From assembly GCA_965276635.1 (NCBI GenBank), contig CBDIBC010000002.1:102528-166527 (forward strand): a DNA stretch of 64,000 bases, read 5' to 3'. Origin of the DNA: Acidimicrobiales bacterium. Lineage in GTDB: Bacteria; Actinomycetota; Acidimicrobiia; Acidimicrobiales; Palsa-688. Under the pieces are notes generated by a model. That model had not been told where the DNA came from. It was given only the letters and a program-made list of their open reading frames with translations, and did no database searches. A program made the translations under genes and the position numbers. This document shows positions 2,015 through 33,632 of the stretch, piece after piece. Position 1 is the stretch's first letter, and the number at the start of each line of letters is the position of its first letter.

Positions 2015-2016
2015 CA

Positions 2017-3309: not shown

Positions 3310-3320
3310 CGGTCGGTCTC

Positions 3321-7375: not shown

Positions 7376-8181
7376 ATGCCGGTGGAGACGCTGGACCAGC
7401 GGTTTGACGACGAAGGCGGCGAGATCCGCTGGACGAGCATCGGGGACGGCCCGCCGATCGTGCTCGTCCACGGCACCCCCTACTCATCGTTGATCTGGCG
7501 CGCGATCATCCCAGCGCTCTCAGCTCGCCGACGAGTCTTCCTCTTCGATCATCTCGGCTATGGCCGATCTGAGCAGCGTGAAGGCCAGGACCTCAGCCTT
7601 GCAGCGCAGGGCCGCCGCTTCGCCAGACTGCTGCAGCATTGGCGCCTTGACCCCCCGACCGTCGTTGCGACCGACATCGGGGGCGCCATCGCCCTGCGCG
7701 CTCTCCTGCTCGAAGGCGCCTCATTCAGCGACCTGCTGCTGTTCGACGCGGTCACCGGCGGTGATTGGGAGCGTGGACTGTTCGCGCTCATGCTCGAACA
7801 CACAGAGGTCTTTGAAGCGCTCCCCGGCTACGCCCACCGCTGGTCGCTAGCCATATGCACAACGCCACGCATCTGGGAATTCGTCCCGGCGTGCTCGACG
7901 AACTGCTCGCCCCCTGGCTCGGCGTCAACGGCCAGGCCGCGTACTACCGCCAATACAGCCAGCTGCGTCAAGCCGACACCGCCGAGTACGAGCACCTGCT
8001 CACCGAGATCGCGGTCCCCGTGCGAATCCTCTGGGGCCGGCACGACCAGATCCTTCCCAACTACTACGCCGAGTGGACCGCCTCACGGCTTCAAGACGCA
8101 CCTTTGTTGTGGGAGGACAGCGCCGGGCACCTACTCGCCGAGGACACCCCGGCTCGGCTCGTCGCCGAAATCCTCGCCTAA
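7376..8181 (+). pseudogene. alpha/beta-hydrolase fold protein with one frameshift near 7840 (or an assembly indel)
   Basis: N-terminal part IVLVHGTPYSSLIWRAIIP..FDHLGYGRS in frame 2; C-terminal part VPVRILWGRHDQILP..SAGHLLAEDTPARLVAEILA in frame 1; RBS GGGAGG before ATG 7376. Confidence 0.6.
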
Positions 8182-13276: not shown

Positions 13277-13930
13277 CTACGCCGGACCGTTGGGGAACTT
13301 CAGCAGCGACCCGGCGTCGACCCGCAGCTGTTGGCCGGTCACGTAGCGCGACTCGTCGGAGGCCAGCCAGAGCACCGCATTCGAGATGTCGACCGGCTCT
13401 ACGTAGGGGATCGGCATGGCCTGGAAGTACGTGAACGCCGGCAGGGCGTCCTCGCGCGTCGGGTTCTCCAGGTCGGGGCGGAACGTCTTGTAGAGGCCTT
13501 CGTTGTTGAGCAGGTGCGTGTTGCAGTTTGTCGGGTGGATGGCATTGGCGCGAATGAAGCGGGGGGCGAGGTGAAGGCGATCTGCTCGGTGTAGCCGATC
13601 AACGTCTTCTTCGACCACGAATAGCCCGCACCGCAGCGCAGATCAACTTCTCACCGCCGAGCGCCGCGGGGCAGACGTTTCTCAGCACCTTGAAGCAGTA
13701 CGACACTTCCTTCACCCGCGACATCCCGGACTTCGGGTTGCTCGGGTCGGCGATCTCGGTCCAGTTGGCCGCCTACGGGCTCAGCTTGGCCGGAGCCAAT
13801 CCGACGTCGTCGATGTTCATCTCCAAGCTGCGCCAGGTGGACAGCTGGGACGACAACGGGCTGCTGTCCGACAACCCCGCCCACTTCACCGGGTTCGGCA
13901 ACGCCGCCAGCTCGGGCCGCGAGGCTGTGC
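13277..13930 (-). pseudogene. short-chain dehydrogenase (carveol-DH-like SDR) remnant, C-terminal part intact, upstream part frameshifted
   Basis: IRANAIHPTNCNTHLLN..PIPYVEPVDISNAVLWLASDESRYVTGQQLRVDAGSLLK; no Rossmann N-terminus in frame. Confidence 0.5.
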
Positions 13931-14153
13931 CTTCTACGAGCAGCTCAAGGGCGGGAAGTGGTCGCCGGCCACAGGCGGACCCATCTGCGGTAATTACATC
14001 TCCTTCCCCAAGCCCTGAGTCAACCACGCCCTGAGCCAGCCCGAGCTCGCAGGCCGAGCGGGCCTGCGAGCCGCCGATGGGCGTTCTGTGCCGGGATGGA
14101 TCTGCGGGGCTTGGCGGCGGCCGGCCGTGGCGACCACGGTATTGGGAGGCGGC

Positions 14154-15341
14154 CTACCAGGCCAGCGGGAAGTAGTCGATGCCGCGCAGGGACGAGCCGT
14201 TCCACTCCAGGTCGGCACCGGAGGCGAGGGCGTACTCGGGGATCCGCCTGTGCCACTCCTCAACCACGACCTGCAGCTCCATGCGGGCCAGATGCGAACC
14301 CAGGCAGCGATGCACTCCACCGCCGAAGGCCAAGTGCTTCTTGTCGGGGCGCTGGAAGTCCACCGTGGTGGCCTCCGGAAAGGCCGGGTCGATGTTGGCC
14401 GACGCCAGGGCGATCGTCACCAACCGGTCCTTGTGCAACGGGCAGCCGGCGATTTCGGTGTCCTCGGTGACCCGCCGGCTCACGCCCTGGACGGGCGTCT
14501 CCCACCGCAGCAGTTCCTCGATGACCTGCGCCTGCTGCTCGGGGTGCTCGATGACCAGCTGCCGGGCCTCGGGGTGGGTGACGAGGTAGTGGAAGATGCA
14601 CTGCAGGGAGATGGTGACGGTGTCCAGCCCGGCGGCCAGCAGCAGGAAACATATGCGAAGTATCTCGCTGTCGGTCAGCCGCTCGCTGTTGATCTCCGCC
14701 GAGAGGAGATAGCTGATGAGGTCGTCGGTCGGTGTGACCCGCCGCTCCTCCATCGCCGACGCGAAACGCCCGTAGACCTCCATTGCGGTGTCGATCTGCA
14801 ACTTCTTCGCCGACTCCGAGTCGGGCGCCAAGGTTTCGGCCCGGATCATGACATCCTTCCACCGCACGAGGTTGTCCAGCTCGTCGATGGGCAGGCCGAG
14901 GAGGCTGAGGAACGTCGAGCACGGCAGAGGTACGGCCAACTCGGCGGAGAGGTCGCAGGACCCGCGGTCGATGAAGCTGTCGATCAGCTGGTTGGTGTAA
15001 GCGCTGATCGCGGGCCGCAGGGCGGCCATGCGTCTGGGCGCGAAGAGCGGATCGAGCAGCCGTCGGTAGCGGATGTGCTCGGGTGGGTCGACGTTGAGGG
15101 GAATCACCGGCTCGGAGCTGCCCATGATGTCGGTGACCGTCGTCGTCACCGACGAGAACAGCGCCGGGTTTCGCAGCGCTGACTCGACGTCGTCCCGTCG
15201 CAGGATCGTCGCCGACCCGTCACCGGCACCCTCGACGTAGTCGACTGGCGTCTCCCCGATCAGCCGCCAGTAGTAGGCGCGAGGATCGCGAGCCCGGTCC
15301 TGGGCCCACTGGCGAAGCTGCTCTTCGTCGGTGACGGTCAT
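14154..15341 (-). CDS. cytochrome P450
   Basis: MTVTDEEQLRQW..; FGGGVHRCLGSHLARMEL heme-binding loop; EELLRWETPV. Confidence 0.9.
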   Translation of the reverse strand: MTVTDEEQLRQWAQDRARDPRAYYWRLIGETPVDYVEGAGDGSATILRRDDVESALRNPALFSSVTTTVTDIMGSSEPVIPLNVDPPEHIRYRRLLDPLFAPRRMAALRPAISAYTNQLIDSFIDRGSCDLSAELAVPLPCSTFLSLLGLPIDELDNLVRWKDVMIRAETLAPDSESAKKLQIDTAMEVYGRFASAMEERRVTPTDDLISYLLSAEINSERLTDSEILRICFLLLAAGLDTVTISLQCIFHYLVTHPEARQLVIEHPEQQAQVIEELLRWETPVQGVSRRVTEDTEIAGCPLHKDRLVTIALASANIDPAFPEATTVDFQRPDKKHLAFGGGVHRCLGSHLARMELQVVVEEWHRRIPEYALASGADLEWNGSSLRGIDYFPLAW

Positions 15342-15489
15342 GGCGGCTGCCCCCTGGAAGTTGCGCGATGTTTGATTCCTGCAGAGCATACACTCGAGCC
15401 AGGAACGCCGACTGCAGCCGGCCGACGTTCTTGCGCAATTGCCGCCGCCAGGGCGGCGCCCGTCAGTTCGGAAAAGGGGAGGGCATTCG

Positions 15490-16782
15490 ATGCGAGTCGA
15501 GGACATGGTCCTCATTAGCGTGGACGACCACACCGTGGAGCCACCGTCGATGAGCGAGTACTTCCGTGAGCATGTTCCGGCGAAGTACCGCGATCGGGTG
15601 CCACGGGTGATCCGGCGCGACGACGGCAGCGACGCCTGGCTGATCGAGAGCAAGGAGATCGCCACCTTCGGGCTCAACGCCGTCCAGGGCCGCCCGCGAG
15701 CGGCGTGGGGATCGGACCCGGCCAGCTTCGACCAGGTCCGGCCCGGCACATACGAGATCCACGCCCGAGTCCAGGACATGGACGCCAACGGAGTGCTGGC
15801 GTCACTGTGCTTCCCGTCGTGGCCGGGCATCGCCGGCCAGTTCTTCGTGGCGAGCGAGGACAAGGACTTTGCCGCAGCGATGGTTCGCGCCTACAACGAC
15901 TGGCACCTCGACGAATGGTGTGGCGCCTACCCGGGGCGCTTCGTGCCCCTGGCCATCTCTGGCTTCCCTCTCGGCGGGGAATGGATGGCCGGCGAGATCC
16001 GTCGGATGGCCGAGCGCGGCTGCCACGCCGTGTCGTTGCACCCCGAGACCTACCGGGCCGATCACCCCGACTACCACGGCGACGAGTGGGACGACGCCTG
16101 GAAGGCCTGCGAGGACACGGGCACGGTCATGGTGTTCCACTTTGGTGGCATGCCCACGTTCATGCCCCGCTCGCCGTTCTCTGTCATCCCCCACGCCATG
16201 CCGTTCCAGACGGCGATCTTCGCCGCCGAACTGCTGTGGTCGCCGATCATGCAGCGCTTCCCCGGCGTCCGCATGGCCTTGGCCGAGGGCGGCATCGGCT
16301 GGATTCCCTACTTCCTCGAGAAGGCCGACTTCGTCTACGACCACCACCGCCTGTGGACCGGGGCCGACTTCGGCGACAAGCTGCCATCGCAGGTGTTCCG
16401 CGAGCACGTGCAGGGCTGCTTCATCGACGACCTGACTGGCCTCCGGGCGCGCGACGTGATCGGTATCGACATGATCACCTGGGAATGCGACTACCCGCAC
16501 TCCGACTCGACGTGGCCGCAGGCCCCTGAGGTGCTCATGAAATCCCTGGAGACGGCCGAGCTCAGCGACGAGGAGATCGACAAGGTCACCTGGTCCAACG
16601 CCGCCCGTTGGTACCAGTTCGATCCCTTCGAGCACCGGACGCGCCAGGACGCCACCGTCGGGGCGCTGCGGGCGCGGGCCACCGACGTAGACACGACGGC
16701 GCGTGAGTACGGCAATCTCGACCACTCTTACGGGCTCGACATGAACGCCAACCAGTTCATGGATCGCGCCAACCGGCCCTGA
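15490..16782 (+). CDS. amidohydrolase family 2 (ACMSD/LigW-like metal-dependent hydrolase)
   Basis: MRVEDMVLISVDDHTVEP..; strong GGGGAGGG RBS. Confidence 0.8.
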   Translation: MRVEDMVLISVDDHTVEPPSMSEYFREHVPAKYRDRVPRVIRRDDGSDAWLIESKEIATFGLNAVQGRPRAAWGSDPASFDQVRPGTYEIHARVQDMDANGVLASLCFPSWPGIAGQFFVASEDKDFAAAMVRAYNDWHLDEWCGAYPGRFVPLAISGFPLGGEWMAGEIRRMAERGCHAVSLHPETYRADHPDYHGDEWDDAWKACEDTGTVMVFHFGGMPTFMPRSPFSVIPHAMPFQTAIFAAELLWSPIMQRFPGVRMALAEGGIGWIPYFLEKADFVYDHHRLWTGADFGDKLPSQVFREHVQGCFIDDLTGLRARDVIGIDMITWECDYPHSDSTWPQAPEVLMKSLETAELSDEEIDKVTWSNAARWYQFDPFEHRTRQDATVGALRARATDVDTTAREYGNLDHSYGLDMNANQFMDRANRP

Positions 16783-16907
16783 CCTGCGCTCACCCGGAGG
16801 GCATCACCCATGGTGGGGAGGGTCCGGCACCAGAGGTGCCGGAGGCCAGGTTGCCGAAACCGCCCGAGGACCGGTCGAGACGCACGTCACCTGGAGGAGG
16901 ACAACCC

Positions 16908-17096
16908 GTGAAGATTCGCATCGAGACATCGGCGTGCACCGGCCACGGCCGCTGCTACTCGTTGGCGCCAGAGGTCTTCGAGTGCGATGACGCCGGCTAC
17001 GGCAGGATCGCAGACGAGGATGTGCCCGAGGCCCTGCGGGACAAGGCGATGATCGGGGCGCAAAACTGTCCCGAGCAGGCCATCACCGTCGAGTAG
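16908..17096 (+). CDS. ferredoxin (single-cluster, P450-type)
   Basis: VKIRIETSACTGHGRCYSLAPEVFECDDAGYG..AQNCPEQAITV; GGAGGAGG RBS. Confidence 0.8.
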   Translation: MKIRIETSACTGHGRCYSLAPEVFECDDAGYGRIADEDVPEALRDKAMIGAQNCPEQAITVE

Positions 17097-17165
17097 CTGC
17101 GCCGGTTGCGCCGCGGCGGTACAACCGGCGGCCTCGGCGGTCCGTATCGCAGAAGGAGCAGAGAC

Positions 17166-17665
17166 ATGACAGGAACGCACGAGTCCAGACTGCTTATCGA
17201 CGCCCCGCTCGGCGACGCCGTCAGATGGCCGGCCGAGTACATCGACGAGTATCCCTGGGAGCGCGACCTCGGTGTCGCCGACGTTTTCGGCCAGAAGACA
17301 CGGCGCAAGGTGGTCAAGGAGGCCGCTGGCGTGGTCGGCGCGATCGTCCCGTGGAATTATCCGTTCGAGGTGGCGCTCAACAAGTTGGGTCCGGCGCTGG
17401 CAACCGGCAACACCGTGGTCCTGAAGGCTGCGCCCGACACACCGTTCAACGCCACCCGGATCGGGCGGTGTCCTCGAGCGACATCGAGCGCGCCCTGAGC
17501 GTGGCCTCCCGTATCCGGGCCGGGGTGCTCACCATCAACGGATCCAGCTGGTACGGCCCGGCATCACCCTTCGGTGGGTTCAAGCAGAGCGGTGTCGGTC
17601 GCCAGAACGAGTTCGAAGGGTTCGAGCAGTACACCGAGACCAAGACCTACGGGCTTCCGGCCTAG
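17166..17665 (+). pseudogene. aldehyde dehydrogenase remnant with about 250-aa internal deletion
   Basis: [27 protein letters not shown] joined directly to the C-terminal IRAGVLTINGSSWYGPASPFGGFKQSGVGRQ across a frame change; strong RBS before ATG 17166. Confidence 0.6.
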
Positions 17666-17794
17666 ACGACGTTTTTCGCCGAGGCGCTTCCCGAGCTTCG
17701 GCCCGGTAGGGTCGCACCAGCCCTCGCCGCCGTGGACACGCCAATGTCCACGGGAGCGTCCCGCCTCGAGGGGTGGGTTGGGTACCTTCCCCAC

Positions 17795-19000
17795 ATGGAC
17801 ACCGAAGACCGGCAGGTCGTCGACAACGCCGTCGACCACCTCCTCGAGGAGCATCCCCCGGCGTCAACCGAGCCTGTGGAGTTCCTGCGGGCACAGTTCG
17901 ACGCCGGACTGGCCTACGTCTGGTTCCCGCCGGGTTACGGGGGCTTGGGGCTACCCCTCGAGTTGCAGCAGGCCGTCGACCTGCGGCTTGCTGCGGCCGG
18001 AGCTCCGCCGAGCGGCCGTACGACCAACGCCATCGCCGCCGGACAGGGAGCGGCCAGCATCCTGGCCTACGGCAGCGAGGACCAGAAGCGCCGTTACCTC
18101 CGACCGCTCTTCACGGCCGAGCTGATGGGTTGTCAGCTCTACAGCGAGCCCGGCTCGGGTTCGGACCTTGCGTCCCTCGCCACTCGAGCCGTACGCGACG
18201 GCGATGAGTGGGTCGTCGACGGGCAGAAGGTGTGGACCTCTGGAGCCCATCGCGCCGACATCGCCATTCTCCTGGCCCGGACCGATCTCACGGTTCCCAA
18301 GCACGCCGGGCTGACCCAGTTCGTCGTCGACATGCACGACCCGGGCGTCGAAGTACGGCCGCTGCGGCAGATGTCGGGCGGCGCCGAGTTCAACGAGGTG
18401 TTCCTCGGCGGGGTGCGGGTTCCGGACTCCGAGCGACTGGGCGAGGTCAATGACGGCTGGGCGGTGTCGCAGCACACCTTGCTGGCCGAGCGCTACAACA
18501 TGCCCCAGGTGGCCAGTCGCGGGGAAGGAGCCATCTCCCTGGCCGTCGATGCGTGGCAACGACGGCAGGACAAGAGCTCACCGACGGCACGAGCCCTGCG
18601 GGCGGAGTTGCTTCGCCACTGGGTCGACAACGAGGTGCTCCGCCTGCTGTTGCGCCGGGCGGCCGAGCGGCGGGCTCTCGGGATCGCCGGTCCGGAGGGC
18701 TCGCTCGGGAAGGTGGCGGTCTCCGCCACGCTGCGACGACTGAACGAGTGGGCACCGGCACTCCTCGGCGCCGAGGGCTGCATCCTGCCAGAAGGGTACG
18801 ACTCGCTGCCGGACGACCGGGTCGGGATGCGCAGGATGGCCTCCGATCTCGCCGCAGCGTGCGTCGGCAGCCCCGGGGTTGCCATCGCCGGCGGCACCGA
18901 TCAGATCCAGCGGAACATCATCGGCGACCGGGTGCTCGGCTTGCCCCGTGAACCGGCGGTCGATCGGGGGGCGCCCTGGATCCAGACGCCGCGCAACTGA
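17795..19000 (+). CDS. acyl-CoA dehydrogenase
   Basis: YSEPGSGSDLASLATRAVRDGDEWVVDGQKVWTSGA..IAGGTDQIQRNIIGDRVLGLPRE. Confidence 0.85.
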   Translation: MDTEDRQVVDNAVDHLLEEHPPASTEPVEFLRAQFDAGLAYVWFPPGYGGLGLPLELQQAVDLRLAAAGAPPSGRTTNAIAAGQGAASILAYGSEDQKRRYLRPLFTAELMGCQLYSEPGSGSDLASLATRAVRDGDEWVVDGQKVWTSGAHRADIAILLARTDLTVPKHAGLTQFVVDMHDPGVEVRPLRQMSGGAEFNEVFLGGVRVPDSERLGEVNDGWAVSQHTLLAERYNMPQVASRGEGAISLAVDAWQRRQDKSSPTARALRAELLRHWVDNEVLRLLLRRAAERRALGIAGPEGSLGKVAVSATLRRLNEWAPALLGAEGCILPEGYDSLPDDRVGMRRMASDLAAACVGSPGVAIAGGTDQIQRNIIGDRVLGLPREPAVDRGAPWIQTPRN

Positions 19001-19048
19001 GCGGCGCCATCCAACCTCGCACTGCTTCGCCTCCCGAACGGCAGCCGC

Positions 19049-20212
19049 TCAGCTCCGGGTGAGGACCATTGCGCCGCACTGGGGGCCGTGGGCGTTGGCT
19101 ACCACGGCCACCTTGGCGTGGGGGACCTGGCGTCTACCGCACTCGCCTCGCAGCTGCAGTACCGCCTCGGTGAGAAAACCCAGACCGTGCAGGCGCCCCT
19201 CGGTCAGTTGACCTCCGTGGGTGTTGAGCGGAAGGCTGCCGCCGGGGCCGATGCGCTTGCCGTTGTCGACCCAGTCACCGAACTCCCCGATACCGCAGAA
19301 TCCGAGGGCTTCTATCCAGGAGATGGTGATGTGGGTGAAGCCGTCGTAGAGCGCGGCCACGTTGACGTCCCGGACGCTGACCGACGCGTCGCACCACAAC
19401 CGCTTCGCACACTGACGGGTGCCCCCGAAGAGGAGGTCATCGGGGAACGTCCAGTCAGGGGTGCGGCCGGTCCCGTAGGCGATGCTGTCGATGAGCACGG
19501 CCGGCTTCGCCAGGTCGGCGGCTCGTTCCGCAGTCGTCAACACTGCGGCGCAGGCCCCGCTGACTGGGTAGTCGCAGTCGAGAAGGACCAGCGGTTCGGC
19601 CACCGGACGCGAGGCCAGGTAGTCGTCCATGGTGATGGGGTCGCGCAGCACGGCCCGTTCGTTGCCGGCCGCCCATCTCCTGGCGTTGACGGCAATGTGG
19701 CCGTAGTCCTCGTTCGAGCCGCCCAGCTCGGCGATGCGGCGTTGCTTGCGCATGCCCATCGACTGGATGATCCCGCCCGCCAGGCCGTAGGGGGCGGTGA
19801 ACTGCTCGTGGCCGCCGGCCGGCTGGCGCTCGGTGAGCACCGCCCCCTGATGGCCGGCGGCACGGGTGATGGTCCGATACACCAGAACCGTGTCGCACGC
19901 GCCGGAGGCGATGGCCATCGCGGCATCCAAGGCGCCCGCCAGCCCGGAGGGGCCGCTGCCCATGATGTCGTTGAAGACGTGGAGGTTGTCGATGCCGAGC
20001 AGTTTCTGCGCGCTGATGGCCGTGGGTGAGTCCCCCCGGCCGCCGAACTGGTACTCGACGATCCCGTCCACGTCGGCAGGGGTGAGGCCGGCGTCCGTGA
20101 GCGCGCCGCGGCATGACGTCAAGGTCATGCTGCGGATGTCGGGCGCACCTGACCGAGCGATGGGAGAGTAGCCCACGCCGGCGATGGCGACGGGCCGGGA
20201 CAGGCGGCTCAT
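19049..20212 (-). CDS. thiolase-like lipid-transfer protein (Ltp2/SCP-x type)
   Basis: MSRLSRPVAIAGVGYSPIAR..; ATGA overlap with the upstream DUF35 gene. Confidence 0.8.
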   Translation of the reverse strand: MSRLSRPVAIAGVGYSPIARSGAPDIRSMTLTSCRGALTDAGLTPADVDGIVEYQFGGRGDSPTAISAQKLLGIDNLHVFNDIMGSGPSGLAGALDAAMAIASGACDTVLVYRTITRAAGHQGAVLTERQPAGGHEQFTAPYGLAGGIIQSMGMRKQRRIAELGGSNEDYGHIAVNARRWAAGNERAVLRDPITMDDYLASRPVAEPLVLLDCDYPVSGACAAVLTTAERAADLAKPAVLIDSIAYGTGRTPDWTFPDDLLFGGTRQCAKRLWCDASVSVRDVNVAALYDGFTHITISWIEALGFCGIGEFGDWVDNGKRIGPGGSLPLNTHGGQLTEGRLHGLGFLTEAVLQLRGECGRRQVPHAKVAVVANAHGPQCGAMVLTRS

Positions 20213-20616
20213 GCCGGGGTCCCGGCCAGGCGGAACTGCGGCAGGCTCCACTCGCCTCGAACCTCGAACGTCACCTCGACCGGAGCCCCGCCCTTGACGT
20301 CCTCCGGCGCACAGCCGACGACGTTGGTGAGGATCCGGGCGGAGGGGTCCTCCTCGAGCTCGACCAGTGCCAGCACGAACGGCACCTCGAAGGCGGGGTC
20401 GAAGGTCTGGCGGGCGACGGTGAAGGCGTAGATGTGGCCCCGGCCGCTCACCTCAGCCGGCGTCAACGGGTCGGCCCCACACATCTGACACACCACGGTG
20501 GGCGGGTACTGGTACCGGCGACACGCATCGCACCGCTGCACCAGCAGCTTCCCTTGGCGGGCGCCTTCCCAGTAGAACTCCGACACCGCGTCGGGTTGCG
20601 GCACGGGCTTGTCCAT
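20209..20616 (-). CDS. DUF35 OB-fold / zinc-ribbon protein (Ltp2 partner)
   Basis: MDKPVPQPD..LLVQRCDACRRYQYPPTVVCQMCG..; RBS CAGGAGAAACAC. Confidence 0.75.
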   Translation of the reverse strand: MDKPVPQPDAVSEFYWEGARQGKLLVQRCDACRRYQYPPTVVCQMCGADPLTPAEVSGRGHIYAFTVARQTFDPAFEVPFVLALVELEEDPSARILTNVVGCAPEDVKGGAPVEVTFEVRGEWSLPQFRLAGTPA

Positions 20617-20742
20617 GTGTTTCTCCTGACTGCTTCGAGCCACCGGACGGCAGCGTATCGGTCCGTCCGCAGCGGACACCTCGGTAGTCCGTTGCTACCG
20701 TCCTCGACAGGGGCCAACGAGCTCAGGAAGAGGACTGGGAAA

Positions 20743-21345
20743 ATGGGAGCGATGCTGCGGGTGGGTCTGGTGGGGGTGGGATGGGGTGCGCTCGTCCACG
20801 CTCCTGCGTTCCGCGCCGTCGCTGGATACCAACTCGTCGCCCTGTGTGCCACCCGTCCGGAGAGCGTGGCGCGGGCGTCCGAGCGACCCGGTGTCAGCGA
20901 CACTTCGACGGATTGGAAGTCCTTCGTCAGGCGCGACGACCTCGACCTGATTTCCATTTCCGCACCCGTACCGTTCCACCGGGAGATGACGCTCGCGGCG
21001 CTCGACGCCGGCAAGCATGTGCTGTGCGAGAAGCCTCTGGCGATGAACGGTGACGAGTGTCTCGACATGGTCCTCGCCGCCGAGCGCAGCGACCGGGCCA
21101 CTGCAGTTTGCTTCGAGAACCGCTGGTCCCCCGAGCGGCTGGCTATCCGGGAGCTGGCGGAGGGCGGAGCGCCGGGCCCGTGTCGTTTGTGCAGGCAACC
21201 GTCCGAGGATTGGCTCCCGGCCTTCGACGGCGCGCCGACCTCCCTGCCCTCGCTGCGAGACGGCTGGAGAGTGCAACAGATCATCGATGCAGCGCTGCGC
21301 TCCTCCGACGGCGGCGGATGGGTCGACATCGAGCAGACGAAATGA
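20743..21345 (+). CDS. Gfo/Idh/MocA-family oxidoreductase, unusually short (200 aa), possibly internally deleted
   Basis: MGAMLRVGLVGVGWGALVHAPAF..GKHVLCEKPLAMNGDEC. Confidence 0.55.
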   Translation: MGAMLRVGLVGVGWGALVHAPAFRAVAGYQLVALCATRPESVARASERPGVSDTSTDWKSFVRRDDLDLISISAPVPFHREMTLAALDAGKHVLCEKPLAMNGDECLDMVLAAERSDRATAVCFENRWSPERLAIRELAEGGAPGPCRLCRQPSEDWLPAFDGAPTSLPSLRDGWRVQQIIDAALRSSDGGGWVDIEQTK

Positions 21346-21361
21346 GGCTAGGAGTGGTGCG

Positions 21362-22560
21362 ATGACGAAGCCCTTGGCCGGCGTGAAAGTCGTCGAGCTC
21401 TCGATGTGGGCCTACGTGCCCTCGGCCGGCGCGGTGCTGGCTGACTGGGGAGCGGACGTCGTCAAGATCGAATCCCCCTCGGGCGATCCCATCCGGGGCC
21501 TGGTGAACGCCGGAGTCGGGCCTATGGCGGATATCACCTTCACCTGGGAGATCTTCAACCGCAACAAGAAGGCCATCGCTCTGGACCTCACCAGGCCCGA
21601 GGCGCAAGAGATCGTCTACATGCTGGCCGCAGACGCCGACGTGTTCCTCACCAGCCTTCTGCCACCGGCGCGCAAGAAGCTGGGCGTGGACCTGGCCAGG
21701 ATCCGGGAGGCCAACCCCGGCATCATCTACGCCTCCGGGACCGGTCAGGGAGCCCGGGGCCCCGAAGCCGATCGCGGCGGCTACGACTCCATCACCTTCT
21801 GGTCGCGCGGTTCTATAGCCGCAGCGGTCACCCCTCCAGAGCACCCACGACCGGTGGGCATGCCGGCCGGGGCGTTCGGCGACTCCATCTCTGGCATGGC
21901 CCTCGCCGGCGGGGTGGCCGCTGCGCTCGTGCAGAAGGCTCGAACAGGCGAGGCGTCGGTGGTCGACGGCTCGCTGCTCGGGACGGCCATGTGGGCCATG
22001 CAGATGGGGATCGTCGGCGCCGCCGTGGCAGCTGCCGCCCCCTCGCCAGCCAAGCTCGACGTCGCCCCGGTGGCCAACCCACTGGTTACCAGCTACCGAA
22101 CCTCCGACGACCGGTGGGTGGCCTTGTTGCATGCTGCAGCGCGATGCCTACTGGGACCGGCTGTTCGCGACCGTCGGGCGGTCCGACATCCTCTCCGATC
22201 CCCGGTTCCAGACCCGGCAGACCGCACCGCCAACGGTGATGCTGCGGTAGCCGAGCTGGAGACGACGTTCGCCGAGCACCCACTGGCTCACTGGCTAGAG
22301 GTCCTGCCTGCCAGAAGGGGCAATGGGACGTGGTCCGGCTGGTATCCGAGGTTGGGTCTGACCCGCAGGCGGTCGCCAACGGCTTCATTCAGGACGTGGG
22401 CTACGGGGAGGACCGTTCATTGCCGATTGTCGCCAATCCCGTTCAGTTCGACCGGGCTCCGCCGGAGCTGCGGCTGGCGCCGACCTTAGGGGAGCACACA
22501 GACGCCGTCCTGGCGCCTCTCGGTATGGACGACGAGGCGATCCGAGGTCAAGATCAGTGG
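21362..22560 (+). pseudogene. CaiB/BaiF family III CoA-transferase, at least three frameshifts
   Basis: MTKPLAGVKVVELSMWAYVPSAGAVLADWGADVVKIESPSGDP in one frame; DAYWDRLFATVGRSDILSDPRF in a second; DRSLPIVANPVQFDRAPPELRLAPTLGEHTDAVL in a third. Confidence 0.6.
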
Positions 22561-22696
22561 CGGAGTCGTATAGCCCCGGGCAGTCGTGTCCAGGGCCCGC
22601 ACCCTCGGGTGCCAATGACAAGGAGCTCGTTCGAGAGCGACTACCCGCACTCGGACGGCAACTGGCCCACACCCGCAAGCTGCTGGCCGAGGCCGC

Positions 22697-23674
22697 TCAT
22701 GAAGCGGAGTTGATCGATCGTCGCTCGACGGCGTCGGCGAACTGACGCCAGTCCTCGGCGTAGCGGCGCGCCTGGTCGGCCACCTCATAGATCCGGCTGA
22801 GAGGGACCGCGCCGATGTACTCGCACCATCGGGCCGCCGTGCCTGCGGCGTCGAACCAGGAGGCGAAGTCGGCGCTGTCGTCGCTCGACCGGCACGCTGT
22901 GTCCCCGGTCCACGCCGGCTCGGATCGCGTCGGCGGGCTCCACGGGGCCGACACCTCCCTCTGGTGGGAGCGGCGAGGGTCCTCGCCGCGCTCGATGCGG
23001 TTTCGCACCGATCGGACGGTTTCCGGAGCGGCCCCCACCTCCTGCGCGATCTGGCGCAGGGAGGCCCTCGGGCTGGTAGCGATGGCGTCGGCAATCCGAG
23101 CTCGCACCGCCGTCGCGTGGACCGGCCGCACCCGCCGGTCCCGGCCGACACGTACGTGGGGTTCCGGCCTGCTGTCCCCCGCCCGCACCGCAGCCCTCAG
23201 TCGACCCACGGTCTTGTGGTCCAACGCGCAGATCCGTCCGATGGCCCGATCGGATCGCTCTCGTGAGGTCGCGAGCAGGCGCCTCGCCGCTGCGCTGCGC
23301 TCGGCGATGGACAGCGGCAGTCCGTGCTGGACGTTGGCCTGTACTGCCTCGATGAAGGCCTCGTCGTCTGTGCCGTGAAAGAGGCGGGCGTTGATGGTCG
23401 TCAGCCGGAGCTGGCGCGCAGCCACCACTCGGTGCATCCCATCGATGACCTGGAGGGTGGTTCCGGACACCAGGATGGCCGGCCACCGGTCGGGCACCTC
23501 AGCCAGCGCCAATACGTGCTCCCGCTGCAAGTCGCGTGCCCGCAGCGAGGGTCTATGGCGCAGGTCCTCCACCCTGAGTGTCGTCTCGTCGCTGTGAGAG
23601 GCGAGACGCAGGGGCACCGGGACCCGGGCCGCGTCCTGATCGATGGTGTGGCCGGTAGCTGCGGCGGTGGTCAC
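22697..23674 (-). CDS. StrR-family (ParB-like N-terminal domain) pathway-type transcriptional regulator
   Basis: VEDLRHRPSLRARDLQREHVLALAEVPDRWPAILVSGTTLQVIDGMHRVVAARQLRLTTINARLFHGTDDEAFIEAVQANVQHGLPLSIAERSAAARRLL. Confidence 0.7.
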   Translation of the reverse strand: MTTAAATGHTIDQDAARVPVPLRLASHSDETTLRVEDLRHRPSLRARDLQREHVLALAEVPDRWPAILVSGTTLQVIDGMHRVVAARQLRLTTINARLFHGTDDEAFIEAVQANVQHGLPLSIAERSAAARRLLATSRERSDRAIGRICALDHKTVGRLRAAVRAGDSRPEPHVRVGRDRRVRPVHATAVRARIADAIATSPRASLRQIAQEVGAAPETVRSVRNRIERGEDPRRSHQREVSAPWSPPTRSEPAWTGDTACRSSDDSADFASWFDAAGTAARWCEYIGAVPLSRIYEVADQARRYAEDWRQFADAVERRSINSAS

Positions 23675-24068: not shown

Positions 24069-25275
24069 GATGAGCGCCATCGAGGAGCAGCCCGTCACCA
24101 CGGCGGGGACGACCTGCCCGTTCGTTCGCTACGAGGAGGTCAACGTAGGCAAGGCCGACGCCCTGTGGCACTTCGCCAACTTCGACCGCAAGCGGGAGCA
24201 GGCTCGAATCCACTTCGGCGATGCCGACGGGCACGAGTTCTGGATGCTGACGACGATCGAGGATATTCGGACGGCTCTCCAGCAGCCCGCCACCTTTTCC
24301 AGCCGCTCGGTGCAGCCCAACGATCCTGATCCCCCCTACCAGTGGATCCCTGAGATGCTCGACCCGCCGCTGCACACCCAGTGGCGCCAGCTGCTCGGGC
24401 CGACCTTCACCCCAGCGGCGATCGCCAAGCTCGAGCCCAAGGTCCGCCAGCGGTTCAGTGAGATCCTCGACGAGGTGGCAGCCAGGGGCCGCTGTGATTA
24501 CGTCGCCGACGTCGCGCTGTGCTTCCCCAACACGATCTTCATGGAGATCATGGGCCTACCGGTGTCGGACGCCGCCCAGTTCCAGGCGTGGGAGACTGCA
24601 ATCCTGCACGGGAGCGTCGGCAAGGAGGCGTCGTACAACGCCATGATGGAGGTTGTCGGCTACTTCGGCCAACTGGTCGCCGAGCGGCGCAAGACCCCTC
24701 GCGACGACCTGGTGAGCGCCGCGCTGTCCTACCGCATCGACGGCGAGTTGGTCTCCGACGAAGACCTCCTCAGCCTGTGCCTGCTCCTCTTCATGGCCGG
24801 CCTCGACACGGTTGCCATGCAGCTGTCGTACTCGATGCTGCACTTGGCCACCCACGCCGACGACCGCCGCCGGCTGATGGCGGAGCCAATCCTCTGGCCT
24901 ACCGCCATCGAGGAGTTCCTTCGCTACTACTCCTTTGTCACCCCAGGCCGAAAGATCGTGCAGGACGGTGAGTTCCAGGGCTGTCCGATCAGGGCCGGCC
25001 AGATGGTCTACCTCCCGCTGGTCTCGGCCAACCGCGATCCGCAGGAATTCTCTGACGCCGGCAAGGTCCTGATCGACCGGGAGGTCAACCGGCACATAGC
25101 CTTCGGTGTTGGACCCCACCGGTGCCTCGGCACCCACCTGGCTCGCCAGGAGCTGCGCATCGGTCTGGTCGAGTGGCATGCCCGCATCCCGGACTACCGT
25201 CTCGCCGAGGGGTCCGCGATCGTCGAGCATGGTGGGCAGGTCGGCCTCGACAACCTGGACTTGGTCTGGAACTGA
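24069..25275 (+). CDS. cytochrome P450
   Basis: MSAIEEQPV..; FGVGPHRCLGTHLARQEL; EEFLRYYSFV. Confidence 0.9.
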
Positions 25276-25305: not shown

Positions 25306-26091
25306 TCACGGAGGGGGCGGCAGGGCGCTGGGGTCCGGGTGGCCGGGCCCGAAGCTGCGCACGTGGACGACGTCGATCATCTGCCCGGCCGGGCGGGTCA
25401 GGATGAACACCAGGGCTTCGGCCATCCACGCCGGGTCCTGGCCGGGACCGGCGACCCGGGTCAGGTAGCCACTGGCATCCCACGCCGGGAAGGCGGCCTC
25501 GACCTCCTCGGGCGCGAAGTTGGACCCGAAATCGCTGGTGACGGTACCGCTCACATAGTTGGACACCCGGATGCGGTCCTCCTTCAGCTCGTGCACCATC
25601 ATTCGCGAGAAGTGGTCCAGGCCGCCCTTGGACGCCCCGTACAGGACCATGGAAGGGAGGTAGTCGCTCGTGATCTCTGAGGTCACATTGACGATGTCGC
25701 CCCCGCCGGCCTTGCGGAGCAACGGGATGGCCGCACGCGTGGTGTAGATCGGCCCGAGCAGGTTGACTCCCATGACGTAGGCGATGTCCTCGTCGGTTGC
25801 GTCCTCGATCCGGCGGACCCGGGCCACGCCGGCCACGTTGAGCAGCGCGTCGACCCGGCTGAAAGCCTCGTCGATTCGGCCGAAGGCGTTTCGAACGCTG
25901 GCTGGGTCGGCAACATCGCAGATGACCGGGGTCGCCCTGAGTGCATTCGCCTCCTTCTCCAGGCGGTCTCGGCCTCTCGCCAGCATCACGACGTCAGCTC
26001 CCTCGCTCGCGCAGAGCGTGGCGGCGGCCAGCCCGATGCCCGATGATGCTCCGACGACCACAACCACCCGCCCGTCCAGACGCTGCCCCAT
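25306..26091 (-). CDS. SDR-family oxidoreductase
   Basis: GRVVVVVGASSGIGLAAA..; YGASKGG. Confidence 0.85.
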   Translation of the reverse strand: MGQRLDGRVVVVVGASSGIGLAAATLCASEGADVVMLARGRDRLEKEANALRATPVICDVADPASVRNAFGRIDEAFSRVDALLNVAGVARVRRIEDATDEDIAYVMGVNLLGPIYTTRAAIPLLRKAGGGDIVNVTSEITSDYLPSMVLYGASKGGLDHFSRMMVHELKEDRIRVSNYVSGTVTSDFGSNFAPEEVEAAFPAWDASGYLTRVAGPGQDPAWMAEALVFILTRPAGQMIDVVHVRSFGPGHPDPSALPPPP

Positions 26092-33071: not shown

Positions 33072-33632
33072 CTAGCCGCCCGTGTAGGCGATGACCACGC
33101 GACGGTTCTGCTGCCGGCCGCCAGGATTGTCCGAGCCGTCGGGGTTGGTGTTGGGCGCCACGGGGTCGGCCTTGCCCAAGCCCTGAGCCTGGTAGGCGAG
33201 GGCACCGTTGCCGACGTTGGCCTGCAAGAAGGCCTGCACCGACGCGGCGCGGTTCTGGGAGAGGGTTTGGTTGTAGCTGTCGGTGCCGACGGAGTCGGTG
33301 TAGCCGTTGATCGTCACCGTGCCGGCCCCAGAGGACTTGAGCGTGCTGACGACATCGCCGAGCACGGCCTGGGAATCAGGCGAGAGGGTGGCCACGTTGA
33401 AGGCGAAGAGGATGTCGCTGCCCACGTTGAAGGTGTCGGGAGCGGGCTGGGTGGGGGCGATGCTGGTGATCCGAGGCTGCAGGCTCACGATCCGGGGCTG
33501 CAGGGTGACAACTCGCGGCGTGCCCGGTGTCGGCACCGAGCTTGCCCCCGCCGGGGAGGCCGCCGCCAGTGCGGCGCCGATGGCTGCGGCGCGCCGCGGC
33601 CGGGATCGCCACCGTCGAGGTCGGTCGGTCAT
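33072..33632 (-). CDS. OmpA-family protein with signal peptide
   Basis: MTDRPRRWRSRPRRAAAIGAALAAASPAGASS signal; TINGYTDSVGTDSYNQTLSQNRAASVQAFL...RRVVIAYTGG. Separate from the kinase only if the 8-C run at 33699-33706 is really 7 C. Confidence 0.6.
   Translation of the reverse strand: MTDRPRRWRSRPRRAAAIGAALAAASPAGASSVPTPGTPRVVTLQPRIVSLQPRITSIAPTQPAPDTFNVGSDILFAFNVATLSPDSQAVLGDVVSTLKSSGAGTVTINGYTDSVGTDSYNQTLSQNRAASVQAFLQANVGNGALAYQAQGLGKADPVAPNTNPDGSDNPGGRQQNRRVVIAYTGG

What the first reader, a model, noticed from the sequence alone, without database searches (positions are those of the whole stretch)
14154..22560. P450 / ferredoxin / amidohydrolase / ACAD / Ltp2-DUF35 / CaiB cluster resembling steroid or branched-lipid side-chain catabolism, with decayed members
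A P450 lies divergent from an amidohydrolase-2, a dedicated ferredoxin and an ACAD. Beyond them sit a convergent DUF35-Ltp2 pair (overlapping ATGA), a short Gfo/Idh/MocA oxidoreductase and a family III CoA-transferase. Ltp2+DUF35, paired ACADs and CYP+Fdx are the recurring kit of actinobacterial sterol side-chain and lipid degradation. An aldehyde dehydrogenase retains its RBS and both termini but lost about 250 internal residues. CaiB carries several frameshifts. This suggests a pathway in the process of being trimmed or rewired.
Basis: partly seen in the sequence, partly recalled or inferred. Interest (0 to 1): 0.5.

Follow-up and report, generated by a model that had tools for sequence, protein, structure and literature searches.

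The report
Partly decayed two-oxygenase CoA-ester catabolic island
This is an ordinary actinobacterial gene neighbourhood for oxidising and shortening a greasy carboxylic acid; it joins two conserved gene modules, about five of its genes are dead remnants, and its "amidohydrolase" is really a diiron hydroxylase, so nothing ties it specifically to steroids.

Summary
The gene calls are correct. Present at 14154-22560 are a P450, an Amidohydro_2 protein, a small ferredoxin, an ALDH wreck, an ACAD, a DUF35/Ltp2-like pair with an ATGA overlap, a Gfo/Idh/MocA gene and a family III CoA-transferase.

Corrections:
- The "amidohydrolase" is a DitZ-family diiron hydroxylase (an amidohydrolase-related oxygenase, ARO). 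It matches DitZ over its full length at about 40% identity and has both metal motifs.
- The ALDH lost about 324 of 493 residues in two deletions, plus a frameshift.
- The "short" Gfo gene is an internal-deletion pseudogene.
- CaiB has three 1-nt frameshifts, and its 3' end runs into a roughly 40-aa remnant of a second ARO.
- A truncated SDR lies just upstream.

The DNA is Acidimicrobiia-like, not mycobacterial. The cluster joins two modules that are conserved separately elsewhere. One is ALDH-P450-Fdx (Jatrophihabitans and metagenome contigs). The other is ARO/CaiB/ARO/DUF35/Ltp2-like/Gfo (intact in locus L088).

The steroid reading is only a family-level resemblance:
- Both P450s are under 40% identical to CYP125 and CYP143.
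- The Ltp2-like enzyme has YDGF and Arg in place of Ltp2's YDHF and Tyr344.
- There is no MaoC hydratase, no adjacent ACAD partner, no KstR box and no ring-degradation gene.

Verdict: a known kind of cluster, genuinely eroded, of modest interest.

The parts
13277..13633 (-). SDR pseudogene fragment. It keeps only about residues 170-290 of a 290-aa homologue and has a frameshift near 13570.
   Evidence: Pfam adh_short_C2 profile positions 159-234 only. 75% identity to residues 189-289 of the L048 SDR, plus residues 170-193 in another frame; no N-terminal part found.
14154..15341 (-). Cytochrome P450 'a', intact, 395 aa.
   Evidence: Pfam p450. Heme, ExxR and I-helix motifs present. Best solved structures are CYP143 (208 bits, 37% identity) and CYP125MRCA (33%). 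Homologues at 62-63% identity sit in ALDH-P450-Fdx operons.
15342..15489 (.). 148-bp divergent intergenic region between the P450 and the ARO gene.
   Evidence: Sequence. It holds only a short palindrome, GCCGACTGCAGCCGGC. No sigma-70-like promoter or KstR box was found.
15490..16782 (+). DitZ-family amidohydrolase-related diiron oxygenase (ARO), intact, 430 aa.
   Evidence: Matches Rhodococcus DitZ (PDB 8uyr) at E = 7e-102 over its full length, about 40% identity, and PtmU3 at 6e-33. Has the D-x-H motif (VDDH; x = Asp, as in DitZ) and the D-x-P-H-x-D motif (DYPHSD) (PMC13154177).
16908..17096 (+). Small single-cluster ferredoxin, 62 aa, with a CxxHxxC...CP motif.
   Evidence: Pfam Fer4_15 and Fer4_13. 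Sequence and ribosome-binding site. 44-51% identical to the ferredoxins that directly follow the P450 homologues in L084, L085 and L086.
17166..17665 (+). Aldehyde dehydrogenase pseudogene with two internal deletions and a frameshift. The catalytic Cys and Glu regions are gone.
   Evidence: Pfam Aldedh profile positions 96-175 and 399-460, in two frames. Aligned to the L084 ALDH it keeps residues 10-18, 113-203 and 434-486 of 493. It is 64% and 60% identical to the ALDH upstream of the P450 homologues.
17732..19000 (+). Acyl-CoA dehydrogenase, intact. The exact start codon is uncertain (17732-17795).
   Evidence: Three ACAD Pfam domains. Best solved structures are Tcur3483 and ChsE4/FadE26. 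A Glu aligns with ChsE4 Glu247. Best NCBIfam model is PimC large subunit, below its cut-off. Orthologues at 63-74% identity lie in other contexts in Acidimicrobiia MAGs.
19049..20212 (-). Ltp2-like thiolase-fold protein, 387 aa, without an aligned thiolase nucleophile Cys. It belongs to a YDGF/Arg variant group.
   Evidence: Pfam Thiolase_C_1. Best solved structure is T. curvata Ltp2, 6ok1_A, 170 bits. The motif variant is shared with L088 (two copies) and L084. 68% identical to the L088 orthologue.
20209..20616 (-). Free-standing DUF35 protein (Zn-ribbon plus OB fold), translationally coupled to the Ltp2-like gene through an ATGA overlap.
   Evidence: Pfam zf-ChsH2 and OB_ChsH2_C. Best solved structure is ChsH2(DUF35), 6ok1_B. 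CxxC...CxxC motif and the overlap are seen in the sequence.
20743..21345 (+). Gfo/Idh/MocA oxidoreductase pseudogene. The N-terminal Rossmann domain and the last roughly 45 residues remain; about 180 internal residues are deleted.
   Evidence: Pfam finds the N-terminal domain only. Aligned to the 362-aa L088 homologue at 62% identity.
21362..22584 (+). Family III CoA-transferase pseudogene with three 1-nt frameshifts (near 22127, 22212 and 22315). Its own 3' end and stop codon are lost.
   Evidence: Pfam CoA_transf_3 profile positions 1-302 of 366 in one frame. Three-frame reading. The corrected protein is 56% identical to the intact L088 CaiB over its full length. Best solved structure is Rv3272; the racemases score lower.
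22585..22713 (+). Remnant (about 40 aa) of a second ARO/Amidohydro_2 gene, read through from the CaiB pseudogene.
   Evidence: FESDYPHSDGNWP matches the D-x-P-H-x-D region of AROs. It best resembles the ARO gene directly downstream of CaiB in L088 (FEGDYPHSDSNWP). The match is short, so this is suggestive only.
22697..23674 (-). Putative regulator with a ParB-like DGMHR motif and an HTH, divergent from the second P450.
   Evidence: Weak Pfam HTH_23 hit. Sequence. A 43%-identical homologue lies near a P450 in L002. The function is inferred.
24070..25275 (+). Cytochrome P450 'b', intact, 401 aa.
   Evidence: Pfam p450. 37% identical to P450a, 38% to CYP125MRCA and 37% to CYP143. Homologues at 40-42% identity lie in the L084 and L017 clusters.
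25306..26091 (-). Intact short-chain dehydrogenase.
   Evidence: Pfam adh_short over the full length.

Best explanation
The region is a catabolic gene island of an Acidimicrobiia-like actinobacterium. It would oxidise a hydrophobic, probably alicyclic, terpenoid-like or branched carboxylic acid and shorten it as a CoA thioester. The substrate is unknown.

It joins two modules that are conserved separately in other genomes.

Module A (ALDH-P450-Fdx). The P450, fed electrons by the small ferredoxin, would hydroxylate a C-H bond. The ALDH would carry the oxidised carbon on to a carboxylate.

Module B (ARO, CaiB, further AROs, DUF35 plus Ltp2-like, Gfo).
- The family III CoA-transferase would make the CoA thioester.
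- The DitZ/PtmU3-type diiron ARO would hydroxylate an unactivated carbon.
- The ACAD would desaturate the acyl chain.
- The DUF35-bound, Cys-less, thiolase-fold enzyme would cleave a C-C bond by a retro-aldol-type reaction.

In this genome the island is eroded. The ALDH, the CoA-transferase, a second ARO, the Gfo oxidoreductase and an SDR are dead. The P450 has been separated from its ferredoxin by the ARO gene. The pathway as encoded here is therefore incomplete. The intact genes (P450a, ARO, Fdx, ACAD, Ltp2-like/DUF35, P450b, SDR2) either work with paralogues elsewhere in the genome or are the next to decay.

Shown: the gene identities, catalytic motifs, lesions and synteny with intact relatives. 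Inferred: the reaction order, the substrate class and whether the surviving genes are still used.
For: - Gene families.
- ARO identity: full-length match to DitZ (8uyr) and a match to PtmU3, with both metal-binding motifs and a hydrophilic x in D-x-H (motif definitions in PMC13154177 and PMC10811679).
- Module A: the P450's closest homologues with context (62-63% identity) sit in ALDH-P450-Fdx or P450-Fdx operons in L084, L085 and L086. The window's ALDH remnant is 64% and 60% identical to that upstream ALDH.
- Module B: L088 carries ARO (74%), GntR, CaiB (56%), two ARO-like genes, DUF35 (48%), Ltp2-like (68%) and a full-length Gfo (62%).
- Related sets also occur in L084 and L017.
- Catalytic competence of the survivors: P450 motifs; ACAD Glu aligned to ChsE4 Glu247; the conserved Tyr of the YDxF motif and four Zn-ribbon Cys in DUF35.
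- Lesions.
- The lesions look real. Five are deletions of 0.3-1 kb that keep both gene ends. The three CaiB frameshifts cluster within about 190 bp, while roughly 5 kb of neighbouring ORFs are unbroken. CaiB also lost its 3' end.
- Acidimicrobiia affinity.
Against: - No close relative (over 90% identity) was available, so the order and age of the rearrangements and deletions are not established.
- No hydratase (MaoC or ECH) or CoA ligase lies in the island. Even the ancestral pathway is therefore incompletely described.
- The ACAD orthologues (63-74% identity) lie in unrelated contexts. The ACAD's membership in either module is not shown.
- The closest ARO homologues (80-82% identity) are orphans, or sit in a Rieske-oxygenase cluster. 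The ARO's link to the other genes rests mainly on L088.
- The single-base frameshifts could be assembly errors. A Ser/Thr kinase elsewhere in the window is also split by one. A related MAG (L006) has its ACAD orthologue in three frames.
- The substrate is unknown.
Confidence: 0.6

Rival explanations
1. It is a true steroid (cholesterol or bile-acid type) side-chain degradation cluster. The P450 would be a C26/C27 oxidase, the ACAD would be FadE26/28-like, and Ltp2/DUF35 would be the C17 side-chain aldolase.
For: The best solved-structure matches are steroid enzymes: CYP143/125/142 for the P450, Tcur3483 and ChsE4 for the ACAD, and T. curvata Ltp2 with ChsH2(DUF35) for the pair. A separate ACAD pair with a TetR regulator lies at 522-4440.
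Against: - Both P450s are under 40% identical to CYP125MRCA and CYP143, and P450cam scores almost as well as CYP142.
- The Ltp2 catalytic signature is not met: YDGF replaces YDHF and Arg replaces Tyr344 (PMC12329534).
- DUF35 is not fused to, or next to, a MaoC hydratase.
- There is no adjacent ACAD partner subunit.
- There are no KstR or KstR2 boxes.
- No KshA, KstD, Hsa or Ipd-type genes appear among the ORFs scanned.
- Solved structures in these families are heavily biased towards steroid enzymes, so a best hit carries little weight.
Confidence: 0.08
2. It is a diterpenoid (resin-acid, dit-like) catabolic cluster. The ARO would be a DitZ orthologue hydroxylating dehydroabietic-type acids, the P450 would play a DitQ-like role, and the thiolase-like protein a DitF-like role.
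For: The ARO's only strong characterised relative is DitZ, a diterpenoid hydroxylase (PMC13154177). The dit cluster also combines a P450 (DitQ) with a 'sterol carrier-like' protein (DitF) (PMC13063091).
Against: - Identity to DitZ is only about 40%, and the ARO superfamily has about 17,000 members of mostly unknown function (PMC13154177).
- No ring-hydroxylating dioxygenase (DitA) or extradiol dioxygenase (DitC) was found among the window ORFs scanned.
- The closest ARO homologues lie in unrelated contexts.
Confidence: 0.12
3. The 'decay' is an artefact. The frameshifts, and perhaps the deletions, come from sequencing or assembly errors (for example a long-read metagenome assembly), and the real organism has an intact, working cluster.
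For: - All four clean frameshifts are single-base indels, and two of the three in CaiB lie at short G or C runs.
- A conserved kinase elsewhere in the window is split in the same way.
- The related MAG L006 shows its ACAD orthologue in three frames.
- The remnants still show strong third-position GC bias.
Against: - Five lesions are deletions of hundreds of bases that keep both gene ends (ALDH twice, Gfo, the CaiB/ARO2 junction and the SDR 5' loss). Indel error models do not explain these.
- The three CaiB frameshifts cluster in about 190 bp, while four neighbouring ORFs of about 1.2 kb each are unbroken.
- One CaiB frameshift, in TTGTTGC, is not in a homopolymer.
Confidence: 0.12

Closest known systems
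DitZ / PtmU3-type amidohydrolase-related diiron oxygenases (high-potential AROs; PDB 8uyr, 6omp)
   Same: PF04909 TIM-barrel family. Full-length alignment to DitZ. N-terminal D-x-H with x = Asp as in DitZ. C-terminal D-x-P-H-x-D (DYPHSD), and the conserved C-terminal tail (PMC13154177).
   Different: Only about 40% identical to DitZ. It is not in a dit cluster. The substrate is unknown. It is followed by a small 3Fe/4Fe-type ferredoxin. The paper reports that Rieske ferredoxins are largely absent from the neighbourhoods of this ARO class, and I found no redox partner described for it in the passages read.
Ltp2-ChsH2(DUF35) steroid side-chain aldolase of Thermomonospora curvata and M. tuberculosis (PDB 6ok1)
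   Same: A thiolase-fold protein with no Cys aligned at the thiolase nucleophile loop, paired with a Zn-ribbon/OB-fold DUF35 protein. The Tyr of the YDxF motif is conserved. These are the best solved-structure matches for both proteins.
   Different: YDGF replaces YDHF, and Arg replaces the catalytic acid Tyr344. The variant is conserved in L088 and L084 homologues. DUF35 is free-standing rather than the C-terminal domain of a MaoC hydratase. No ChsH1/ChsH2 is nearby.
CYP143-ferredoxin (Rv1785c-Rv1786) and the CYP125/CYP142 steroid C26-monooxygenases of mycobacteria
   Same: These are the closest solved P450 structures. Relatives of the window P450 are directly followed by a small CxxHxxC-type ferredoxin, as cyp143 is.
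   Different: 33-38% identity, below the 40% family threshold. In relatives the P450 is preceded by an ALDH. In the window, the ARO gene separates the P450 from the ferredoxin, and the two lie on opposite strands.
Heteromeric steroid-type and PimC/PimD-type acyl-CoA dehydrogenases (ChsE4-ChsE5 = FadE26-FadE27, PDB 4x28; Tcur3481-3483)
   Same: Best structural and NCBIfam matches. A Glu aligns with ChsE4 Glu247.
   Different: Low similarity (116-144 bits) and below the NCBIfam cut-off. There is no adjacent second ACAD gene. Orthologues in other Acidimicrobiia also stand alone.
L088 locus (GCA_024641655.1) and L084 locus (Jatrophihabitans sp. DSM 45814): uncharacterised but intact versions of the two modules
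   Same: L088 has ARO, CaiB, ARO-like genes, DUF35, Ltp2-like and Gfo at 48-74% identity. L084 has ALDH-P450-Fdx at 62-64% identity, plus DUF35/Ltp2-like, CaiB and a P450b-like gene.
   Different: In those loci all the genes are intact and the two modules are not joined. The gene order and strands differ from the window.

Membership tests
ARO superfamily (amidohydrolase-related dinuclear oxygenases), diiron DitZ/PtmU3 class | PF04909 (Amidohydro_2) TIM-barrel family | tested here: met
   Pfam PF04909 at 3e-27.
ARO superfamily (amidohydrolase-related dinuclear oxygenases), diiron DitZ/PtmU3 class | N-terminal D-x-H metal-site-1 motif on the first beta strand | tested here: met
   ISVDDHTVEPP aligns to DitZ ISIDDHVVEPA. 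Motif definition from PMC13154177.
ARO superfamily (amidohydrolase-related dinuclear oxygenases), diiron DitZ/PtmU3 class | C-terminal D-x-P-H-x-D/E metal-site-2 motif | tested here: met
   WECDYPHSDSTWP is identical in the query and DitZ.
ARO superfamily (amidohydrolase-related dinuclear oxygenases), diiron DitZ/PtmU3 class | Hydrophilic x (gamma-1) in D-x-H, which predicts diiron dependence. The gamma-2 and gamma-4 criteria also apply. | tested here: inconclusive
   Gamma-1 is Asp, as in DitZ (PMC13154177, Table 1). Gamma-2 and gamma-4 could not be mapped without the paper's alignment numbering.
ARO superfamily (amidohydrolase-related dinuclear oxygenases), diiron DitZ/PtmU3 class | O2-dependent C-H hydroxylation activity (DitZ acts on dehydroabietic acid) | not testable with these tools
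   Needs enzymology.
Ltp2-type steroid side-chain aldolase | Thiolase fold without the thiolase nucleophile Cys | tested here: met
   Thiolase_C_1. The window has GSGPSG in the aligned loop, with no Cys. The position of the loop rests on my knowledge of thiolases.
Ltp2-type steroid side-chain aldolase | YDHF motif (Tyr294 base, His296 oxyanion hole) | tested here: not met
   The window has YDGF. Tyr is kept and His is replaced by Gly (PMC12329534).
Ltp2-type steroid side-chain aldolase | Tyr344 catalytic acid | tested here: not met
   Arg at the aligned position (TEGRLHG against GEAYIHG).
Ltp2-type steroid side-chain aldolase | Partner DUF35 supplied by the C-terminus of a MaoC hydratase (ChsH2 or Shy) | tested here: not met
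   DUF35 is a free-standing 135-aa protein. No MaoC domain appeared among the ORFs scanned.
CYP125 / CYP142 / CYP143 families | At least 40% amino-acid identity to a family member (CYP nomenclature rule, from my own knowledge) | tested here: not met
   P450a is 37% identical to CYP143 and 33% to CYP125MRCA. P450b is 37% and 38%. CYP142 was compared by score only (175 bits).
CYP125 / CYP142 / CYP143 families | Functional P450 core (heme Cys loop, ExxR, I-helix) | tested here: met
   FGGGVHRCLG, ELLRWE and AAGLDTVT.
Heteromeric (alpha2beta2) steroid-type ACAD | Catalytic Glu at the ChsE4 Glu247 position in the alpha subunit | tested here: met
   LLAERYN aligns to LNHERVA. That Glu247 is the catalytic base comes from my own knowledge.
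Heteromeric (alpha2beta2) steroid-type ACAD | Adjacent gene for a second (beta) ACAD subunit | tested here: not met
   The flanking genes are the ALDH remnant and the Ltp2-like gene. The only ACAD pair is 13 kb away at 2026-4440.
Family III CoA-transferase (CaiB/BaiF) | CoA_transf_3 domain in an intact reading frame | tested here: not met
   The domain is present, but three frameshifts disrupt it and the native 3' end is lost. It is closer to the transferase Rv3272 than to the alpha-methylacyl-CoA racemases.
KstR / KstR2 steroid regulon | Operator TnnAACnnGTTnnA or AnCAAGnnCTTGnT near the promoters (mycobacterial motifs, recalled from memory) | tested here: not met
   0 matches in 64 kb. The motifs may not apply outside the Mycobacteriales.
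dit (abietane diterpenoid) catabolic cluster | Ring-hydroxylating dioxygenase DitA and extradiol dioxygenase DitC alongside the P450 or DitZ | tested here: not met
   No Rieske, Ring_hydroxyl_A or Glyoxalase-type hits among the window ORFs scanned.

The most novel reading that the evidence does not exclude
The rearrangement is adaptive rewiring rather than decay. On this reading, the small [3Fe-4S]-type ferredoxin captured from the ALDH-P450-Fdx operon now sits directly behind the DitZ-class diiron ARO and serves as its electron donor. The paper on this enzyme class reports that Rieske ferredoxins are largely absent from its gene neighbourhoods. The surviving ARO, Fdx, ACAD and YDGF/Arg-type Ltp2-like/DUF35 genes would then form a slimmed-down working pathway that uses an uncharacterised C-C-cleaving variant of the steroid aldolase fold.
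Probability: 0.1. Interest if true: 0.5.

Novelty: new member of a known kind. Interest (0 to 1): 0.25.

Why it matters
The main value is as a correction. A gene that reads as a hydrolase is an oxygenase of a recently defined superfamily. A cluster that looks steroid-like from its best hits does not meet the defining residues of the steroid enzymes.

It also shows gene decay by deletion in a catabolic island of a lineage known here only through metagenome-derived relatives. It points to a conserved, uncharacterised YDGF/Arg subgroup of DUF35-partnered thiolase-fold enzymes, and to an ARO-ferredoxin adjacency, both of which could be tested biochemically. None of this would surprise a specialist.

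Tried and rejected
- I first suspected a mycobacterium, from the 68% GC, a 75% GC stretch (possible PE_PGRS) and the pseudogenes. This was rejected: the ACAD's relatives are Acidimicrobiia MAGs, and the 75% GC stretch is a polysaccharide-synthesis cluster.
- An exact-sequence look-up of the P450 found nothing on record. The first homologue search timed out.
- The genome-collection scan with the ACAD gave 80 loci. None had the cluster conserved around the ACAD orthologue. The informative loci came instead from homologues of the ARO and the P450.
- NCBIfam gave no hit above any curated cut-off.
- KstR and KstR2 operator searches found nothing.
- The promoter/terminator scan found no more than shuffled sequence does.
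- Rfam and tRNA scans of the window found nothing.
- A six-frame comparison against the fetched loci, meant to count pseudogenes across the window, was swamped by shadow-frame hits typical of high-GC DNA. It was not used quantitatively.
- I considered that CaiB might be an alpha-methylacyl-CoA racemase, which would fit branched-lipid or steroid side chains. This was rejected: the transferases score much higher (133 against 80 bits).
- I did not run structure prediction, the representative-protein search or the metagenome scan. The questions they could answer were settled by sequence motifs and synteny.

Full report
**What is there**

The window is about 68% GC, so I called genes from third-codon-position GC and then checked them with Pfam.

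- P450a lies at 14154..15341(-). It is 395 aa and has an intact heme loop (FGGGVHRCLG), ExxR motif and I-helix.
- An Amidohydro_2 gene lies at 15490..16782(+), 148 bp away and divergent from the P450.
- A 62-aa single-cluster ferredoxin lies at 16908..17096(+). It has a strong ribosome-binding site and a CxxHxxC...CP motif.
- An aldehyde dehydrogenase wreck lies at 17166..17665(+).
- An ACAD lies at 17732..19000(+).
- An Ltp2-like thiolase-fold gene lies at 19049..20212(-), convergent with the ACAD across 48 bp.
- A DUF35 gene lies at 20209..20616(-). Its TGA stop overlaps the Ltp2-like ATG as ATGA.
- A Gfo/Idh/MocA gene lies at 20743..21345(+).
- A family III CoA-transferase lies at 21362..22584(+).
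- Just outside the given coordinates are an SDR fragment (13277..13633, -), a ParB-like/HTH regulator (22697..23674, -), a second P450 (24070..25275, +) and an intact SDR (25306..26091, -).

**Where it comes from**

The ACAD's nearest relatives in a species-level genome collection are Acidimicrobiaceae and Acidimicrobiia MAGs at 63-74% identity. They are not mycobacteria. The exact P450 protein is not on record.

**The "amidohydrolase" is an oxygenase**

The 430-aa protein matches Rhodococcus DitZ (PDB 8uyr) over its whole length (E = 7e-102, about 40% identity). It matches PtmU3 at 6e-33. Hydrolases and decarboxylases of the same Pfam family score far lower.

It carries the two motifs that define amidohydrolase-related dinuclear oxygenases (AROs). 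One is the N-terminal D-x-H (VDDH). The other is the C-terminal D-x-P-H-x-D (DYPHSD). The variable x is Asp, as in DitZ, and that residue type marks the diiron class (PMC13154177; PMC10811679).

DitZ hydroxylates the diterpenoid dehydroabietic acid. By my recollection, PtmU3 hydroxylates diterpenoid intermediates in platensimycin biosynthesis. The divergent pair is therefore two oxygenases, not an oxygenase and a hydrolase.

Close ARO homologues (up to 85% identity) are abundant in Acidimicrobiia and other Actinomycetota. Their contexts vary. Some are orphans next to toxin-antitoxin genes (L082, L083). One sits in a Rieske-oxygenase/CoA-ligase cluster (L081). One is an orphan in Jatrophihabitans (L087).

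**Two modules, joined**

*Module A.* The P450's nearest homologues with usable context are 62-63% identical. They sit in ALDH-P450-Fdx operons (Jatrophihabitans L084, metagenome L086) or a P450-Fdx pair (L085). In each, the ferredoxin gene overlaps the end of the P450 gene. The window's ALDH remnant is 64% (N-terminal piece) and 60% (C-terminal piece) identical to that upstream ALDH. This is about as similar as the P450s are to each other, so it is most likely the same gene. In the window the P450 is on the opposite strand, and the ARO gene lies between it and the ferredoxin and ALDH remnant.

*Module B.* Locus L088 (GCA_024641655.1) carries these genes in order:
- ARO (74% identical to the window's)
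- GntR regulator
- CaiB (56% to the frame-corrected window protein)
- two further ARO-like genes, both with the ARO motifs
- DUF35 (48%)
- Ltp2-like (68%)
- a full-length 362-aa Gfo/Idh/MocA (62%)

After its CaiB, the window has a remnant of about 40 aa (FESDYPHSDGNWP). This matches the ARO gene that follows CaiB in L088 (FEGDYPHSDSNWP). The match is short, so it is only suggestive.

L084 also holds DUF35/Ltp2-like (40%), a ferredoxin reductase, a P450b-like gene, a DUF35-thiolase fusion and CaiB (42%). L017 has ACAD, CaiB, Ltp2-like, DUF35, Fdx and P450. The families therefore recur together, but the window's particular arrangement was not seen elsewhere. The ACAD orthologues lie in other contexts.

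**The decay**

- ALDH. Against the 493-aa L084 protein, only residues 10-18, 113-203 and 434-486 remain. The last block is in another frame. About 324 residues are lost, including the regions that hold the catalytic Glu and Cys.
- Gfo. Residues 1 to about 137 and about 318 to 362 of the L088 protein remain. About 180 residues are lost.
- CaiB. There are three single-base indels: near 22127 (an extra T in TTGTTGC, where L088 reads ALCMLQ), near 22212 (in a CCC run) and near 22315 (in a GGGG run). The native C-terminus and stop codon are also lost, giving read-through into the ARO remnant.
- SDR. Only about residues 170-290 of 290 remain, with a frameshift.

Five of these lesions are deletions of hundreds of bases that keep both gene ends. 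Indel-type sequencing error does not explain that. The three CaiB frameshifts fall within about 190 bp, while the four neighbouring genes of about 1.2 kb each are unbroken. As a rough argument, random errors would rarely cluster like this.

The remnants still show strong third-position GC bias. They are no more diverged from relatives than the intact genes beside them, so the inactivation looks recent.

A caveat applies to the single-base frameshifts. A conserved Ser/Thr kinase at 33075-35356 is also split by one indel. A related MAG has its ACAD orthologue in three frames. Without reads, assembly error cannot be excluded for these. Other fragments in the window show that erosion is not confined to this island: an alpha/beta-hydrolase C-terminal piece at 7816-8178, and an IS3 transposase remnant at 52141-52824.

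**Is it steroid catabolism?**

The best solved-structure matches are indeed steroid enzymes. The defining features mostly fail.

- P450a is 37% identical to CYP143 and 33% to CYP125MRCA. P450b is 37% and 38%. The two window P450s are 37% identical to each other. P450cam scores 162 bits against 175 for CYP142.
- In T. curvata Ltp2 the catalytic residues are Tyr294 and His296 of YDHF, plus Tyr344 (PMC12329534). The window protein has YDGF, and Arg at the Tyr344 position. The same variant is conserved in the L088 and L084 homologues. It therefore marks a distinct, functional subgroup rather than decay.
- DUF35 is free-standing, and no MaoC hydratase was found.
- The ACAD has a Glu at the ChsE4 Glu247 position but has no adjacent partner subunit. 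The only ACAD pair is at 2026-4440.
- No KstR or KstR2 box occurs in the window. Those motifs are mycobacterial and were recalled from memory.
- No steroid ring-degradation or dit ring-cleavage genes were among the ORFs scanned.
- CaiB resembles the transferase Rv3272 rather than the alpha-methylacyl-CoA racemases.

**Most likely working**

The following scheme is inferred from what is known of these families. A hydrophobic substrate is hydroxylated by the P450, and in the intact ancestor was carried on to the acid by the ALDH. The CoA-transferase makes the thioester. The diiron ARO adds a hydroxyl at an unactivated carbon. The ACAD desaturates the chain. The DUF35-bound, Cys-less thiolase-fold enzyme cleaves a C-C bond by a retro-aldol-type reaction.

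In this genome the acid-forming and CoA-activating steps, one ARO, the Gfo and one SDR are dead. The island cannot run the whole route by itself. The survivors must rely on paralogues elsewhere in the genome or are themselves dispensable. The substrate class (terpenoid-like, alicyclic or branched) is a guess.

**Verdict**

The steroid interpretation is only partly supported. This is a new member of a known kind of catabolic cluster, with real but unremarkable gene decay. Interest is modest, at 0.25.

Noticed in passing
window 33075-35356 (-): A Ser/Thr protein kinase with a C-terminal OmpA-like domain is split into two overlapping ORFs. A single-base frameshift lies between the DFG and APE motifs, near 34745-34781. 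Both halves look well conserved, so this is either a very recent lesion or an assembly error.
   Followed up: partly
window 38100-50800: A stretch of 74-76% GC, well above the 65-70% of most of the rest of the window. It encodes a polysaccharide-synthesis cluster: SIS domain, PfkB kinase plus cytidylyltransferase, GT1, carbamoyltransferase, two GT2 enzymes and a pyruvyl transferase.
   Followed up: partly
window 51000-59000: Weak coding signal and few Pfam hits. An IS3-type transposase remnant lies at 52141-52824 (rve profile positions 4-65 of 102 only). An ISL3-like HTH hit lies at 54092-55174. The region looks like decayed mobile-element DNA.
   Followed up: partly
window 59911-63075 (-): A 1054-aa ORF with fibronectin type III and He_PIG Ig-like domains, presumably a surface protein.
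   Followed up: no
window 522-4440 (-): Two adjacent ACAD genes (about 2026-3174 and about 3324-4440; the second has no middle-domain hit) next to a TetR regulator. This is the only 'paired ACAD' arrangement in the window. The first is 68% identical to an ACAD in L002, which also holds the orthologue of the cluster ACAD.
   Followed up: partly
window 7816-8178 (+): A 121-aa ORF that matches only the C-terminal part (profile positions 126-216 of 217) of an alpha/beta hydrolase. It is probably another gene fragment.
   Followed up: no
window 13634-14153: About 230 bp (13651-13880) have very strong third-position GC bias (0.90-0.96). There is no Pfam match and the strand is unclear. It lies between the SDR remnant and the P450 stop, and may be another unrecognised remnant.
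   Followed up: partly
window 22697-23674 (-): A 325-aa protein with a ParB-like DGMHR motif and a weak HTH hit, divergent from the second P450. A 43%-identical homologue lies near a P450 in L002. It may be a StrR-like regulator.
   Followed up: partly
L088 10001-16117: Three ARO paralogues, all with D-x-H and DYPHSD motifs, lie within 6 kb alongside CaiB and DUF35/Ltp2-like genes. This multi-ARO catabolic locus is not described in the papers I read.
   Followed up: partly
L006 10001-11212: The ACAD orthologue in this related Acidimicrobiaceae MAG is readable only in three frames. Indel errors or pseudogenes therefore also occur in public assemblies of this lineage.
   Followed up: no
window 19049-20212; L088 16808-17965 and 1132-2268; L084 1734-2894: A conserved variant of the Ltp2-like active site (YDGF plus GR[L/R]HG, no aligned Cys nucleophile). 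It defines an uncharacterised subgroup of DUF35-partnered thiolase-fold enzymes.
   Followed up: partly
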